The notes under the pieces were generated by a model that saw only the letters and a program-made list of their open reading frames with translations, ran no database searches and was not told where the DNA came from. Both the position numbers and the translations under genes were made by a program. From the human T2T-CHM13v2.0 reference genome, Homo sapiens: 64,000 nucleotides of DNA. Location: assembly GCF_009914755.1 (NCBI RefSeq), contig NC_060934.1; one strand, given 5' to 3'. Shown in pieces: positions 2,717 through 8,203 of the stretch (its first letter is position 1; every line of letters starts with the position of its first letter).

Positions 2717-3116
2717 ACTTCAATTGATTATTAATTTGCAAGTTTGTAATGCTTTCAATGGTTCAACCCGTTTGATGTTAGTTCTGAGTTCAGACTTGTG
2801 AGTGACAGACACACAAAGGCAGCTACGAGACTATCAAATTCACTCAGCTTAATTTTTGTGGTGGTTGCTATTATCTATTTTTATTTGTGTATATTTGAAT
2901 GCCAAATACCAAAATTCAAGCATAAACTTTGTGATGGATTGTTTGAAAAGTGGAGATTTATTAAATGAGGAACGATTCCTTTTGAAACTTTTTGTGCAGT
3001 ATGCAAAAATGGAGAAAGACACCAGCACATAATAACAGCTAAACATGGAAGATATATGATTTCCTCAACTAATATATAAAATTGTAAACAGTTTTTTTTT
3101 ATTAAAAAGAATTCAA

Positions 3117-3416
3117 GGCCAGGTGTGGTGGCTCACACGTGTAATCCTTGCACTTTGGGAGGCCTAGGTGGGTGGATTGCCTGAGCTCAGTAGTTCGAGA
3201 ACAGCCTGGGCAAACCTTGGTGAAACCTTGTCTCTACTAAAAATACAAAAAAATAGCTGGGTGTGGTGGCAAGCACCTGTAATTCCAGCTACTCGGGAGG
3301 CTGAGGCAAGAGAATTGCTTGAACCTGGGAGGTGGAGGTTGCAGTGAGCTGAGATTGTGCCACTGTACTCCAGCCTGGGTGACAGAGTGAGACTGTCTCA
3401 AAAAAAAAAAAAAAAG
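3117..3416 (+). mobile_element. Alu
   Basis: Alu consensus; flanking agaattca duplication. Confidence 0.9.
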
Positions 3417-4170
3417 AGAATTCAGATTGAGATATAGTAATGGCAATGGAAGTTGTAAACATCTGCCACACTATATAACAGCAGCAGTCTTTCAGCTCAA
3501 ATGACAGTTTGAAAGTATTACTGAAAGTATTACTGCTAGAAGTATTTTCTGATTCCAAAGATGCAATCAAATTTTGAAGAGCCAAGAGGAAATCTACTAC
3601 AACAACAAAAGTAATAGCTTCACTATGATCACAGAGATGATCAATGATCTAAATGCCTCACCTATTTTCAGCAGAGCCATGGATACAAGTAATCACAAGG
3701 CAGAAGATATTTTCCCTTTGCTTCTGAACTGCTTTTGGTGGCAATGATACAAATACAAATTGTGGTTGATGTTTGCATAAGGGCACAGACATGCTTGGTC
3801 CAAGCTGAAGTAAAGATTCCAAGTTGTGGGCCGTCCTGCCCACATTCTGCATCATGATGTCAAAATAGCATCTGATGTTCTTTGCATTTTCATTGAAGTA
3901 ATTATCACAAAATTGTTCTCTTACTTCAGCATTTACACTATTAGAATTGAGTGATTAAAGGATTGTGTGATTTTTTTTTTGGCATTCGATATTCTTCATT
4001 TCCTTTGCAGTTAGAAACTCATTGGCTCCTGTAACTAACACAGTTGATAAAGTTGTTAGTTTACGTAAAGTCTTGAAATAATAATTTTAATTTTCAAGAA
4101 AAGACTCCAAAATTTTTGTTTACTTTAAAAATACTCCATTGAGTGAAGTTTACTTGTTTTTTATTCATAG

Positions 4171-6096
4171 TTTTTTTTTTTCACTAGGAAACAAATATTT
4201 TATTCCTTTTTTCTGTTGCTCAGAGGACAGATCGTGATACAGAAAACAGCAGTCTAGCCACAGAGGCTGGGTTTGGTTGATTTCCACAGGCACATGGAGG
4301 ACAGGAATGGTGGGATCCGGTTTGAGCTCCCAGTCTCATTATGACTTTTGACCTCTTCCTGTACCCTCTGCAGCAGTGCAGCATGGAGCCTACTGGGTCT
4401 CTAACCTACTTAACTCACCTCTGTGACCACTGAGGATGCGGGAGTTGTCTCTGCTGACCAAGGGGACATGGGCAGAGAAGCAAAGGCCCCTTACTCTCCC
4501 TCTGTCCATTCCAGTGTGCTGGCCGCAACAGAATGGGAATCCTTCAGTCATCACCTGCTGGAGACTCAGCTTCAGGGATGGGAGCCTGTGTCCAGAAAAA
4601 CTGGGCTATAGATTGAAGTCTCAGAAGCAGGAAGGTTGGAGATGGGTGGGGCACCAGAGCCCCTGTGGTTATTGCTGATAAGATATGCAGGGGCTACATT
4701 CCCCAAGTGTAGATTATTAGTCCTGGGCCCAGGCTGGGCACGGTGGCTGACACCTGTAATCCCAGAATTTTGGGAGGCCTAGGCAGGTGGATTGCTTGAG
4801 GCCAGGGAAAACCCCATCTCTACTAAAAATACAAAAATTAGCTGGGCATGGTGGTGCGTGCCTATAGTCCCAGCTACTCGGGAGGCCCAGGCATGAGAAT
4901 CCCTTGAACCCATGTTGCCATGAGCTGAGATCGTGCCACTGCATTCCGGCTTGGGTGACACAGTGGGACTCTGTCTGAATAAAGAAAAAGAAAAAAAGCA
5001 GCAGCCCTGGGCCTGGAATCCCTGGGTGCTATGTGAAAGGCAGGGCAGATGGGGCTCCCTGGGGCTTCCCCAGGGAGAAAAATAACCATGGAAGGGTATA
5101 GTAGCCTCCTGAAGGTAATGCCGGGCTCACAAACTCCTTGCTTTGCTTTGTATCTCCAATTGCTGATCTTCAGAACAGACGGGTTGGAGTGGGATAAGGA
5201 AGTGAGGTTCTTGTAAAAGAAGTGAAGAGACTCCATGAAGAAAGATGAGGAAAGTGGTGCAAACCTTCCCAGGTCCCAAGACAGCTGGAGACTCCTGCCC
5301 ATGCTCTAAAGGGAAGGAGCTAGACTCTCCAGGGAAAAAAGCAGACTCCCAGGAGTGAGAGGTGATGGGGGGCAGAGAGGAGCAGACGGCCACATGGCTC
5401 AGCCCCTGCCCAGGAAAGTGAGTCCACAGTTCACTAACTATAATCACCATGAACAAGTAGCCATGAACACTATAGTCAGCAAACACACACACAGACACAT
5501 AACACGAGTTGGAGGAGCCTGCAGGCTGCAGTGGTGAGGCAAGAGATTAGTTGGATCATCAGGTGGAGGAATGGTGTTAGAGGGGACAGGGAAGGGCATG
5601 GCAGGACAAAAAAGTTCTTGGCTTCTCTTCTGGAAAGATTTGTTGCTGAAGTGGCTGTTTTCTTAAGCATCAATATTTGCATCTAAAAGTTCAAGCAGCT
5701 GCCTTCAGGTTCCGGAGGCTTCCCACTGGAGGGCTGCACTTCATTCAGCTCTCTGCTTTCTGGAGTTTTGCTGCATTTGCAGTGATGAGGTTCTCCACCT
5801 GGGCTTCCTCCTCCCCTGGGGTCCCGGGCTTCTGATTGAAACTCCACTTGCATCTGCAACCTAGGATAAGGAAGATCCCAACGGAGAAGAGGACCACAGC
5901 ACATACCAACCCCTGAATCTTCAGGGTCTGTTAGTCATAATGAAAATGGTCAATTTCCTTCTCCTACTCAGCTGCACTGGCCATGACAATGAGGGCCAAC
6001 AGGCTGCATAGGAATATCAGCACCACCTCCATGGTGCCTGCACAGCCAGTCCCCTTCCTGAGATGATCCCAGGAGGATGTGTCGAGTCCCAAGGAG
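4171..6096 (-). pseudogene. FXYD6: Processed pseudogene of FXYD6 (CDS remnant 6032-5745)
   Basis: Intronless [93 protein letters not shown] (96 codons), with stops at 5964-5966 and 5931-5933. AATAAA at 4199-4204 and poly(A) at 4171-4181 on the minus strand. An Alu is inserted in the 3' UTR. Confidence 0.92.
4732..4998 (+). mobile_element. Alu inserted in FXYD6 retrocopy
   Basis: Alu consensus with internal deletions. Confidence 0.85.
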
Positions 6097-6227
6097 CCTA
6101 AGAGTGGCATGTCCCTAGTTTTCAATCTCTTTAGGGATAGGATTATGCAAATTGAAAGAAGAGCAAACAATGTTACTGAAATAATCCATGGCATAATGGA
6201 ACCTGAATGCATTAAAGAAATAATGGA

Positions 6228-6526
6228 GGGCAGGAGAGGTGGCTCACATCTGTAATCTCAGCACTTTGGCAGGCTGAGGCGGATGGATCAATTGAGGTCA
6301 GGAGTTTGAGACCAGCCTGGTCAATATGGTGAAACCTAGTCTCTACTAAAAACAGGAAAAATTAGCTGGGCGTGGTGGCATGTGCCTGTAATCCCAGCTA
6401 CTGGGGAGGCTGAGGCAGGAGAATCACTTGAATCTGGGAGGCGGAGGTTGCAGTGACCCGAGGTCTTGGCACTGCACTGCAGCCCAGGTGACAGAATGAG
6501 ATCCAGTCTAAAAAAAAAAAAAAAAA
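6228..6526 (+). mobile_element. Alu
   Basis: TSD aagaaataatgga. Confidence 0.9.
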
Positions 6527-6581
6527 GAAATAATGGAATATTCACAAGTGTCAAGACTGTTTCTTAAAATGCAAAAGCATT

Positions 6582-6886
6582 AGGCTGGGTGCAGTGGCTC
6601 ATGCCTGTAATCCCAGCACTTTGGGAGGCCGAAGCGGGCGGATCACGAGGTCAGGAGTTCGAGACCAGCCTGGCCAACACAGTGAAACCCGATCTCTACT
6701 AAAATTACAAAAATTAGCCGGGTGTGGTGGCACAAGCCTGTAGTCCCAGCTACTTGGGACGCTGAGGCAGGAGAGTCGCTTGAACCCAGGAGGCGGAGGT
6801 TGCGGTGAGCCGAGATCATGTCACTGCACTCCAGCCTGGGTTACAGAGCCAGACTCCATCTCAAAAAAAAAAAAAAAAAAAAAAAA
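6582..6886 (+). mobile_element. Alu (S-like)
   Basis: Full-length with long A tail. Confidence 0.9.
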
Positions 6887-7106
6887 CATTATGAGCAGGA
6901 AAATAAATTGTGTCTCGAAGTGATAATCATTGTTGTACTTACCATGACTGTCTTCTGAAATGCATCTCAACCCTTGAATAATTTGATTCTTTTACATGGA
7001 TGGTACTAAATGCTTTTCCAGCATGGGAACAAGTGGGATTATCATCAGTGGTGGTAAAGAAGGGAATAGAAATGGAGAAAAATGCTTCTTTTTTGGTCAG
7101 TGGACA

Positions 7107-7705
7107 TTTATTTTTTATTTTTATTTTAACTTAAACTTCAATAGCTTTTGGAGTACAAGTGGTTTTTGGTTATGGATGAATTATAAAGTGGTGGATTCTG
7201 AGATTTTAGTGCACCTGTCACCTGAGTAGTGTACACTGTACCTAATGTATAGTTTTTTTTTTTTCATTTTTGAGATGGAGTTTTGCTCTTGTTGCCCAAG
7301 CTGAAGTGCAATGGCGCGATTTCAGCTCACTACAACCTCCACCTCTCGAGTTCAAGGGATTCCCCTGCCTCAGCCTCCCAAATAGCTGGGACTGCAGGTG
7401 TGTGCCACCACGCCCAGCTAATTTTGTAGTTTTAGTGGAGACGGGGTTTCACCGTGTTACCTAGGCTGGTCTTGAACTCCTGACTTCGTGATCCACCCGC
7501 CTCCGCCTCCCAAAGTGCTGAGACTACAGGCGTGAGCCACCGCGCCTGGCCATGTGTAGTTTTTTTAACCTCCGGCCTCCTTCCTACCAGCCCCTTCTGA
7601 GTCTCTAAAGTCCATTATATCACTCTGTATGCCTCTGCGTACTCATAGCTTAGCTCCCACTTATAAGTGAGAACCTACGGTTTTTGGTTTTCCACTCCTG
7701 TATTA
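7107..7705 (-). mobile_element. L1PB-like 3' end fragment containing an antisense Alu (7253-7551)
   Basis: Antisense L1 3' UTR motifs (agcttagctcccacttataagtgagaac) interrupted by an Alu. Confidence 0.7.
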
Positions 7706-8203
7706 CCTCTGCCTGTGAACTTTAAAAAGTTATCGTGATCAAGAGATCCTGCATACTCCTGAAGAATGGAAAATGCATGTTTGCCATGCAAGATGGTATT
7801 ACGTGGTTTAACAAATAAAATTTGAAGAGCAATTCCGAGTTATCTTTACGACAGCTTACAGGCTGGTAATGCTCATGTCCAGCGTGTTTTCTCACGGTTA
7901 GCGTCCAATGGACCAGAAAGGAGCAAGTGAAGCTCTCCACACTGGCGCAAGTGTAGGTGGTGCTGCGGCAGCGTCGCGGGGCCACAGGAACCGACCTCGT
8001 CTGGAGAAATTCCACTCGTGAATTCTGCCAAATGAGGAAGTGTTGAGGACGGCCAAATCATCAGGGGGATGTAATTCATGAGAAAGCTGTGTAATTTAAA
8101 TACTCATAATTTATTTCAGCTAACGAATAAAACTGCAGTACTGCACTTGCCGCATCTGGGAACTAACTGCCCAATGCGGCTGAAACCTCATGCCCTTTCA
8201 AAA

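What the first reader, a model, noticed from the sequence alone, without database searches (positions are those of the whole stretch)
2720..8135. Fossil hAT transposase frame running head-to-head from the ZNF37A promoter: possible dead domesticated gene
Seen: after removing the Alus, the L1PB and the FXYD6 retrocopy, the 'unique' DNA between ~8.1 kb and ~2.7 kb reads on the minus strand as collinear remnants: TVRKHAGHEHYQ..KDNS.LLFKF, CPLTKKEAFFSISIPFF..YSRVEMH, LKRLKTRDMPLLGYE, SYRS(Q)[46 protein letters not shown]. An acceptor-like ttttattcgttag and an ATG (8107) lie about 100 bp from the ZNF143 repeats. Known: these resemble the TTF-finger, LPLRGHDE, YLS..QNE.I and post-RW motifs of ZMYM1/THAP12/Tip100-type hAT transposases, and ZNF143 sites mark bidirectional promoters. 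Inference: this is either an ancient autonomous hAT element or a formerly domesticated transposase gene that shared the ZNF37A promoter and became a unitary pseudogene in primates.
Basis: partly seen in the sequence, partly recalled or inferred. Interest (0 to 1): 0.8.

Follow-up and report, generated by a model that had tools for sequence, protein, structure and literature searches.

The report
Dead hAT transposon, read backwards

Summary
The remaining about 1.85 kb (window 2722-8131) is one collinear element.

It is multicopy. At least 19 other human loci hold collinear copies (63-91% identity per HSP). Other copies carry YAGGGTTGCCAG terminal inverted repeats that the window copy has lost at both ends.

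The coding strand is the window PLUS strand:
- A profile of real plus-sense ORF fragments from other copies finds 229 proteins (E<=1e-3) among 1.84 billion.
- The full-length hits (about 600-690 aa) carry Pfam Dimer_Tnp_hAT.
- One of them, P0014 (625 aa), aligns collinearly, aa 1-619, to window 2906-8063 (+). The best segment is 58% identical (E 7e-17).
- No minus-strand hit reaches E<1e-3.

The ATG and "acceptor" lie in a subterminal stretch shared by the family.

The window copy is as diverged from a leave-one-out consensus as the other copies (K2P 0.21, 17th of 20). It is riddled with stops and frameshifts.

Verdict: an ordinary hAT fossil, co-oriented with ZNF37A. The domestication and bidirectional-promoter idea is not supported.

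The parts
2722..3080 (+). Element piece 1 in coding orientation. It holds the fossil start of the transposase with a C..C...H...H zinc-finger-like N-terminus (P0014 aa 1 to about 62 at 2906-3067). The element is truncated at 2722, with about 807 nt of the family consensus, including one terminal inverted repeat, missing.
   Evidence: Maps to leave-one-out consensus 1618-1976 at 84% identity. tblastn alignment to P0014. No further family DNA elsewhere in the window.
3068..3427 (.). Alu insertion interrupting the element. It is younger and not part of the element.
   Evidence: Listed as masked in the hub table. Other copies align across the joint.
3428..4174 (+). Element piece 2, the catalytic core remnant. 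It includes '[32 protein letters not shown]' (3628-3735), 'GRPAHILHHDV...FSYFSIYTIRIE' (3805-3960) and the 'H.LSL'-type stretch (3954-4118).
   Evidence: Consensus 870-1615 at 80% identity. P0014 aa 253-304 matches 3805-3960 (+) at 58% identity, 62 bits, E 7e-17. The whole-genome search with P0014 lists C10:38133805-38133972:+ at E 6.5e-10.
4175..6109 (-). FXYD6 processed retrocopy (FXYD6P2 plus its 3' UTR and poly(A) tail), inserted into the element. It carries an Alu of its own at about 4720-5030.
   Evidence: PF02038 hit at 5748-5930, E 1.5e-11. AATAAA and an A-run at about 4200-4170. Other copies are contiguous across 6110|4174.
6110..6208 (+). Element piece 3 ('LFRDRIMQIERRANNVTEIIHGIMEPE').
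   Evidence: Consensus 782-882 at 87% identity. Consensus-peptide tblastn hit.
6531..6576 (+). Element piece 4, a short stretch between two Alu insertions (6209-6542 and 6577-6895).
   Evidence: Consensus 748-796 at 82% identity.
6896..7106 (+). Element piece 5 ('FDSFTWMVLNAFPAWEQVGLSSVVVKKGIEMEKNASF').
   Evidence: Consensus 537-747 at 85% identity. P0079 aa 457-514 matches 6946-7125 (+), E 5e-4.
7107..7720 (-). L1 3'-end fragment inserted into the element. It contains an Alu of its own at 7193-7557.
   Evidence: Window 7107-7192 matches a very abundant repeat (962 first-look candidates at 76-93% identity). L1 identity is recalled from the sequence motif, not from a call.
7721..8131 (+). Element piece 6, the C-terminal hAT dimerisation remnant ('SLQAGNAHVQRVFSRLASNGPER', 7853-7921), followed by the 3' subterminal region. 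It is truncated at 8131, with the last about 127 nt including the terminal inverted repeat missing. It is strongly GC-enriched.
   Evidence: Consensus 128-532 at 69% identity. P0014 aa 554-576 and 596-619 align here. Other copies share 'TTTATCTGAAATAAATTATAAGTATCTAAATTACAT' here. AT>GC 64 against GC>AT 12.

Best explanation
Window 2722-8131 is one decayed, doubly truncated copy of an ancient (eutherian-age) autonomous hAT-superfamily DNA transposon. The family is about 2.8 kb long, has YAGGGTTGCCAG terminal inverted repeats and encodes a transposase of about 625 aa of the FAM200/GTF2IRD2-like + Dimer_Tnp_hAT type.

The transposase remnant lies on the window PLUS strand, in the same direction as ZNF37A. 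It runs from about 2906 to about 8063.

After insertion the copy decayed neutrally. It was later broken up by four Alus, an L1 3' fragment (with a further Alu inside) and an FXYD6 retrocopy (which also carries an Alu). It lost both termini. It was then copied with the ZNF37A locus to chr10:43.43 Mb by segmental duplication.

It has no gene function.

Shown: multicopy status, terminal inverted repeats in other copies, coding strand, hAT homology, and ordinary divergence. Inferred: the age, neutral decay, and the order of insertions.
For: (1) Multicopy and collinear.
- Each of four 'unique' pieces finds 10-24 places on other chromosomes (identities mostly 67-79%, a few short ones higher), plus a copy at chr10:43.43 Mb at 90-93%.
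- The insertion-free window sequence aligns collinearly to 19 other copies, with HSPs crossing the excision joints.

(2) Termini.
- Other copies extend about 127 nt past 8131 to YAGGGTTGCCAGATTTAGCA.
- They extend about 750-800 nt past 2722 to ...CCTGG(C/A)AACCCT(A). The two ends are inverted repeats of each other.

(3) Coding strand.
- The leave-one-out consensus of 19 copies has 32 stops in one opposite-strand frame, against 56-72 in the other five frames.

(4) Homology.
- Profile A4 (8 real fragments from other copies, stops read as X) against 1.84e9 representatives gave 229 hits at E<=1e-3, 54 at <=1e-10 and 4 at <=1e-30.
- Of 13 long hits scanned, 9 have PF05699 Dimer_Tnp_hAT at E<=1e-3, and 6 of those are above the 21.4-bit cut-off.
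- P0014's relatives number 251 at E<=1e-10. Sources name some of them 'Transposase', 'HAT C-terminal dimerisation domain-containing protein' and 'protein FAM200B-like'. Their precomputed Pfam domains are PF05699 and PF27046.
- The ESM Atlas places a real 129-aa ORF from the chrX copy with PF27046 clusters at 0.94.

(5) In the window itself.
- 27 of 30 long relatives hit the plus strand at E<1e-3 (44 HSPs) and none hits the minus strand. The reversed-sequence control peaks at 21.9 bits.
- P0014 aa 1-619 aligns in order to 2906-8063 (+), through at least 4 frame changes and 17 in-frame stops.

(6) No extra constraint.
- K2P to the leave-one-out consensus is 0.211 for the window copy, 17th of 20 (range 0.128-0.233).

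(7) No intact human relative.
- 54 P0014 matches in the human genome. 52 of them have stops inside. The 2 without are spans of only 89 and 51 aa.
Against: - No Pfam model hit any single ORF of the window or of the other copies, on either strand. The hAT assignment therefore rests on intact relatives from other animals, not on a direct domain hit.
- Profile-profile comparison with the human hAT-derived ZMYM1/THAP12-like ORFs found nothing. A PDB profile search also found nothing.
- The 8-bp target-site duplication that defines hAT insertions could not be shown. The one copy with both ends (chr9:28.59 Mb) matches at only 1 of 8 positions.
- The terminal about 125 nt resembles MER53, which Repbase lists under Mariner/Tc1 with TA duplications.
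- The consensus rests on only 19-20 copies and was seeded with the window sequence before the leave-one-out rebuild.
- The other copies are part of the consensus they are measured against, which flatters them slightly.
- The family's Dfam/Repbase name could not be determined.
Confidence: 0.93

Rival explanations
1. One reading: a formerly domesticated transposase gene transcribed on the minus strand from the bidirectional ZNF143-type ZNF37A promoter, which became a unitary pseudogene in primates.
For: - The element abuts the promoter repeats, a 46-nt unit repeated 3.2 times at 8191-8336.
- Both terminal inverted repeats are missing, as in many domesticated copies.
- An ATG at 8107 and a 111-aa minus-strand ORF at 7725-8057 exist.
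Against: - The transposase remnant is on the plus strand, so a minus-strand transcript would be antisense.
- The ATG region is family-inherited subterminal sequence. The other copies aligned do not read ATG at this position (they have ATAAG, ATAAA, GTAAA or AATAA where the window has ATGAG).
- The copy's divergence is ordinary, 17th of 20.
- It has 17 stops and several frameshifts even in the true frame.
- The long minus-strand ORF coincides with a GC-enriched stretch.
Confidence: 0.02
2. The element is a hAT fossil encoded on the minus strand, related to THAP12/ZMYM1 (Tip100-type).
For: A THAP12-like ORF (L004, aa 426-494) gave a 27-bit, E 0.007 tblastn hit at 3963-3769 on the minus strand. 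The reversed-sequence control peaked at 22.7 bits.
Against: - The alignment has three gaps and a stop.
- It lies exactly antisense to the strongest plus-strand hit.
- It is not recovered in 19 other copies or in the consensus, where the best score is 24 bits.
- HHalign of family profiles against the ZMYM1/THAP12 alignment gives probabilities below 1%.
- 0 of 235 reader-strand ORFs scanned (85 from the window and 150 from other copies) hit a transposase family.
Confidence: 0.02
3. The family is a Tc1/mariner-type element, the autonomous partner of MER53 as Repbase classifies MER53, and not hAT.
For: - Consensus positions 103-123 match 18 of 21 nt of the MER53-derived miR-1302 sequence printed in PMC2996404.
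- That paper describes MER53 as having TA target duplications and as 'related to the mariner family' (passages).
- PMC5753468 Table 5 lists MER53 under Mariner/Tc1 (passages).
- 'TA' can be read next to some termini.
Against: - The encoded protein's intact relatives carry the hAT dimerisation domain and the FAM200/GTF2IRD2-like domain.
- The termini start with YAGGG, as in Ac-type hAT elements (recalled).
- No mariner or pogo domain was seen in any scan.
Confidence: 0.03

Closest known systems
hAT-superfamily autonomous DNA transposons of mammals with FAM200/GTF2IRD2-like transposases (the 'Charlie'-type group in RepeatMasker naming; that name is recalled and was not tested)
   Same: - Length of about 2.8 kb and short YAGGG... 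terminal inverted repeats.
- A single ORF of about 625 aa with an N-terminal zinc-finger-like motif, the 'DASNH...', 'CPAHILHN' and 'RW(L/V)SL' stretches, and a C-terminal 'NANVERVFS' dimerisation motif.
- Tens of decayed copies in the human genome.
   Different: - The exact Dfam/Repbase family could not be named here.
- The window copy lacks both termini.
- The 8-bp target duplication was not demonstrable.
MER53 (193-bp non-autonomous element, source of miR-1302)
   Same: The family's terminal about 125 nt contains an 18/21 match to miR-1302. It has the same general layout of a terminus followed by an AT-rich palindromic region.
   Different: - MER53 is non-coding and is listed by Repbase under Mariner/Tc1 with TA duplications.
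- The family here encodes a hAT transposase.
- The window copy starts at consensus position 128 and so lacks the MER53-like part altogether.
Domesticated hAT genes THAP12 and ZMYM1
   Same: Both are hAT-derived. The human loci with DUF4371 were recovered as controls.
   Different: - No detectable profile similarity to this family.
- Those genes have intact ORFs of 670-769 aa.
- The window copy has none longer than 80 aa on the coding strand.

Membership tests
hAT superfamily transposon | Transposase with the C-terminal hAT dimerisation domain (Pfam PF05699) | tested here: met
   Met indirectly. 9 of 13 long relatives found with the family profile carry PF05699 at E<=1e-3, and 6 are above the cut-off. 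The window aligns to that domain of P0014 at 7853-7921 (+), 39% over 23 aa. No direct Pfam hit on any window or copy ORF.
hAT superfamily transposon | RNase-H-like DDE core with an inserted helical domain (FAM200/GTF2IRD2-like, PF27046) | tested here: met
   Precomputed PF27046 on P0014 and many of its relatives. ESM Atlas score 0.94 for a real ORF of the chrX copy (a lead only). The window matches P0014 aa 253-304 at 3805-3960 (+) with 58% identity. PF27046 is not in the local Pfam copy.
hAT superfamily transposon | Short terminal inverted repeats | tested here: met
   YAGGGTTGCCAG at one end in 8 or more copies, and CTGG(C/A)AACCCT at the other end in 3-4 copies. Both are absent from the window copy, which is truncated at consensus positions 128 and 1976.
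hAT superfamily transposon | 8-bp target-site duplication | tested here: inconclusive
   Only one copy (chr9:28.59 Mb) has both ends in hand. Its flanks match at 1 of 8 positions, so the termini may be mis-set or decayed.
hAT superfamily transposon | Interspersed multicopy family | tested here: met
   19 other collinear copies plus one segmental duplicate. 54 protein-level matches across 17 chromosomes, which is a floor.
Domesticated (exapted) transposase gene or its unitary pseudogene | Slower divergence than neutral sister copies, from a period of purifying selection | tested here: not met
   K2P to the leave-one-out consensus is 0.211, 17th of 20 copies (range 0.128-0.233).
Domesticated (exapted) transposase gene or its unitary pseudogene | Coding strand consistent with the proposed promoter (head-to-head with ZNF37A) | tested here: not met
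   The transposase remnant is on the plus strand, co-directional with ZNF37A.
Domesticated (exapted) transposase gene or its unitary pseudogene | Intact syntenic orthologue under selection in other mammals | not testable with these tools
   Only the human assembly and prokaryote genomes are held. Within human, no intact relative was found.
MER53 / Tc1-mariner | TA target-site duplication and a mariner or pogo transposase | tested here: inconclusive
   Terminal similarity to MER53-derived miR-1302 is 18/21. TA duplications could not be scored. The transposase relatives are hAT, not mariner.

The most novel reading that the evidence does not exclude
The promoter-proximal end of the dead hAT copy (7721-8131) may have been absorbed into the ZNF37A CpG-island promoter flank. 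It shows a 5:1 excess of AT>GC over GC>AT changes (64 against 12), raising GC from 0.30 to 0.44, while the rest of the copy is balanced (56:51 and 25:23). The element ends exactly where the 46-nt ZNF143-type repeats begin. On this reading, the KRAB-ZNF promoter was built at, or expanded into, the broken end of the transposon, and the old transposon DNA now serves as part of the regulatory flank. A weaker variant is that this family is the autonomous hAT master of MER53, which would move MER53 out of Mariner/Tc1.
Probability: 0.15. Interest if true: 0.3.

Novelty: already known. Interest (0 to 1): 0.1.

Why it matters
It matters little biologically. Ancient hAT fossils are a well-described component of the human genome, and this copy is dead.

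The value is corrective:
- It removes a candidate "lost domesticated gene" next to ZNF37A.
- It shows that motif-spotting on a decayed element can pick the wrong strand.
- It documents the nested insertion history upstream of ZNF37A and ZNF37BP.

The GC-enrichment of the promoter-proximal end is a small example of a CpG-island flank reshaping old transposon DNA.

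Tried and rejected
Searches that found no transposase.
- Pfam hmmscan of stop-to-stop ORFs found no transposase family:
  - window minus strand, 85 of 85 ORFs;
  - window plus strand, 37 of 96 ORFs, with those inside the Alus and the retrocopy dropped;
  - other copies on the opposite strand, the longest 150 of 328. 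The nearest thing there was PF18804 CxC3 at E 0.097, discounted.
- DUF4371 (PF14291) across the human genome gave 5 places, none in the window.

Comparisons with known hAT-derived genes.
- tblastn of the ZMYM1/THAP12-like ORFs against the window gave only the 27-bit antisense hit.
- The same ORFs against the other copies gave nothing, and against the consensus at most 24 bits.
- HHalign of family alignments A1 and A4 against A2 (ZMYM1/THAP12-like) showed no relation.
- A PDB profile search with A1 found nothing below E 0.4.

Other attempts.
- Target-site duplications were unresolved.
- PF05699 across the human genome failed because the machine did not answer. PF27046 is not in the library.
- A literature search for 'ZNF37A' plus 'transposase' returned 6 papers. 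By title and abstract start (listing only), none concerns a transposase gene at this locus.
- The alignment overlap at the retrocopy joint (consensus 870-882) is not a visible duplication in the sequence, so I do not claim a target duplication for the retrocopy.

Full report
**Observation**

So are the ATG at 8107-8105 and the 'ttttattcgttag' at 8132-8120.

I cut out four insertions:
- the Alus at 3068-3427, 6209-6542 and 6577-6895;
- the L1 3' fragment at 7107-7720, which carries an Alu at 7193-7557;
- the FXYD6 retrocopy at about 4175-6109, which runs well beyond the annotated FXYD6P2 into its 3' UTR and poly(A) and carries another Alu.

The remaining 1.9 kb behaves as one collinear sequence.

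**It is a repeat, not unique DNA**

Each of four 'unique' pieces, searched against the window's own (human) assembly, found two things. One was a copy at chr10:43.43 Mb at 90-93% identity. The other was 10-24 further places on other chromosomes (identities mostly 67-79%, a few short ones higher), excluding the L1-derived first 86 nt of one piece, which gave 962 first-look candidates.

The same distant loci recur for the different pieces and in the same order. Examples are chrX:54.00 Mb, chr5:142.55 Mb, chr7:45.65 Mb, chr10:81.86 Mb, chr2:7.97 Mb, chr2:35.55 Mb and chr9:28.59 Mb. Single HSPs in those loci run across the window's excision joints.

The chr10:43.43 Mb copy has the same spacing between pieces as the window, so it is a segmental duplicate made after the nested insertions.

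**Ends**

Other copies continue about 127 nt beyond window 8131 to a shared terminus, YAGGGTTGCCAGATTTAGCAAATAAAAATACAGGA. They continue about 750-800 nt beyond window 2722 to ...ACAGGATGCCTGG(C/A)AACCCT(A). The two ends are terminal inverted repeats of each other.

A majority consensus of 20 copies, and a leave-one-out consensus of the 19 others, are about 2.78 kb long. The window maps to positions 128-1976 of 2783, so it has lost both termini. No further piece of the family lies elsewhere in the 64-kb window.

None of the other copies aligned there reads ATG at that position (they have ATAAG, ATAAA, GTAAA or AATAA where the window has ATGAG).

**Which strand codes**

Pfam found no transposase domain in any single ORF of the window or of other copies, on either strand. 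The fragments are too short and too decayed.

At family level the picture is clear:
- The longest consensus ORFs (130, 101, 77, 77, 75, 75 aa) chain along the opposite strand.
A 148-aa ORF on that strand in L017 looks Alu-derived and I leave it out.

In the window copy alone ORF lengths do not discriminate.

**What it encodes**

I built a profile (A4) from eight real opposite-strand fragments of other copies, with stops read as X. Searched against 1.84 billion representative proteins, it found 229 proteins at E<=1e-3, 54 at <=1e-10 and 4 at <=1e-30.

The long hits are about 600-690 aa, and the profile matches them around residues 310-430. Of 13 long hits scanned with Pfam, 9 carry PF05699 (hAT C-terminal dimerisation region) at E<=1e-3. 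Six of those are above the curated cut-off, and 4 have no hit.

The best long hit, P0014 (625 aa), has 251 relatives at E<=1e-10 among the 7997 candidates scored. They come from insects, fishes, a lungfish, lizards and a caecilian. Where a source names them, the names are 'Transposase', 'HAT C-terminal dimerisation domain-containing protein' or 'protein FAM200B-like'. Their precomputed Pfam domains are PF05699 and PF27046 (FAM200-GTF2IRD2-like).

The ESM Atlas independently put a real 129-aa ORF of the chrX copy next to PF27046 clusters at 0.94, with 23 of 30 hits in that set. By that tool's own caveats this is a lead only.

**In the window itself**

I took the 30 listed hits of 430 aa or more and ran tblastn against window 2400-8500.
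- 27 of them hit the plus strand at E<1e-3 (44 HSPs).
- No minus-strand HSP reached E<1e-3. The best was 26 bits, inside an Alu.
- The reversed-sequence control peaked at 21.9 bits.

The strongest hit is P0014 aa 253-304 against 3805-3960 (+), at 58% identity, 62 bits and E 7e-17.

On the insertion-free sequence, P0014 aligns in order from aa 1 to aa 619:

| P0014 residues | Window, plus strand | Feature |
|---|---|---|
| 1-133 | from 2906 | zinc-finger-like N-terminus |
| 145-180 | 3628-3735 | '...DTSNHKAEDIFPLL' |
| 253-304 | 3805-3960 | 'GRPAHILHH...FSIYTIRIE' |
| 303-356 | 3954-4118 | 'H.LSL'-type stretch |
| 327-477 | 4019-7035 | runs across the retrocopy and Alu joints |
| 554-576 | 7853-7921 | 'NAHVQRVFS' |
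| 596-619 | 7989-8063 | C-terminal end |

The alignment passes through at least four frame changes and 17 in-frame stops.

A whole-genome protein search with P0014 lists the window at C10:38133805-38133972:+ (E 6.5e-10) among 54 matches on 17 chromosomes. Of these, 52 have internal stops, and the two without are spans of only 89 and 51 aa. That tally is a floor, because a stricter first look was used.

The fossil transposase therefore points the same way as ZNF37A and ends about 250 nt upstream of its annotated start at 8318. It is tail-to-head, not head-to-head.

The only support I could find was a 27-bit gapped alignment of a THAP12-like human ORF to 3963-3769 (-), with a stop inside, at E 0.007 in a 6.1-kb search space. 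It lies exactly antisense to the strongest true hit. It is not recovered in other copies or in the consensus. Profile-profile comparison of the family with the ZMYM1/THAP12-like alignment gives nothing. I treat it as chance.

The open 111-aa minus frame at 7725-8057 coincides with a stretch that has become GC-rich.

**Domestication**

Against the leave-one-out consensus, over positions with depth of 4 or more, the window copy is 81.8% identical (K2P 0.211). That ranks 17th of 20 copies, across a range of 0.128-0.233. The other copies are part of that consensus, which flatters them slightly, but there is no sign of a period of constraint.

Together with the multicopy status, the terminal inverted repeats in sister copies, the wrong orientation for the proposed promoter, and the absence of any intact human relative, this leaves the domestication idea very unlikely. 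I could not examine other mammals.

Divergences of 0.13-0.23 imply a eutherian-age family. This is an inference that uses a recalled neutral rate of about 2e-9 per site per year. It is consistent with PMC2996404's statement that MER53 'exists in eutherian species' (passages).

**Family name**

No Dfam or Repbase library is available here, so I cannot name the family. The FAM200/GTF2IRD2-like domain suggests the Charlie-type group, but that link is recalled and was not tested.

The terminal about 125 nt resembles MER53. Consensus positions 103-123 match 18 of 21 nt of the MER53-derived miR-1302 sequence printed in PMC2996404. That paper (passages) and PMC5753468 Table 5 (passages) place MER53 with Mariner/Tc1 and TA duplications. 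That disagrees with the hAT transposase found here.

Target-site duplications could not be resolved with the ends in hand. The supplements of those papers were not consulted.

**Verdict**

This is an ordinary, already well-known kind of object: an ancient hAT DNA-transposon fossil, broken up by younger retroposons and duplicated with its neighbourhood. It was wrong about the strand, the motifs, the start signals and the gene hypothesis.

Noticed in passing
window 7721-8131: The promoter-proximal end of the transposon copy is GC-enriched relative to the family consensus. AT>GC changes number 64 against 12 GC>AT, and GC rises from 0.30 to 0.44, with the peak at 7900-7999 (29 against 3). The rest of the copy is balanced (56:51 and 25:23). 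This segment is also the most diverged part, at 69% identity against 80-87% elsewhere. It suggests the ZNF37A CpG-island flank has reshaped old transposon DNA.
   Followed up: partly
A further TTCCCAGATGCGGCAAG-like site lies at about 8163-8147. The transposon homology stops at 8131, just short of these.
   Followed up: partly
G000:C10:43430606-43436279 (loci L007, L019, L027, L028, L035): A segmental duplicate of the whole region, in inverted orientation, at 89-93% identity. The spacing between pieces is the same as in the window, so the duplication postdates the Alu, L1 and FXYD6-retrocopy insertions. It is presumably the ZNF37BP locus, but that name is recalled.
   Followed up: partly
window 4175-6109: The FXYD6 retrocopy extends about 1.4 kb beyond the annotated FXYD6P2 (5547-6108), through the 3' UTR to an AATAAA and an A-run at about 4200-4170. 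It carries an Alu at about 4720-5030.
   Followed up: partly
family consensus positions 1-125; loci L021:1377-1527 and L025:1349-1499: The transposon's terminal region resembles MER53, with an 18/21 match to miR-1302. Repbase lists MER53 under Mariner/Tc1 with TA duplications, yet the element here encodes a hAT transposase. MER53 may be a deletion derivative of this hAT family.
   Followed up: partly
window 3769-3963, minus strand: A THAP12-like human ORF gives a 27-bit gapped alignment exactly antisense to the strongest true transposase remnant. It is probably chance, but the coincidence of position is unexplained.
   Followed up: partly
protein library hits P0014 and P0153-P0267: Intact relatives of about 620-640 aa are spread across insects, fishes, a lungfish, lizards and a caecilian. 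Many lie on contigs of only 2-3 kb. This points to a widespread, possibly still active or horizontally mobile, hAT lineage outside mammals.
   Followed up: no
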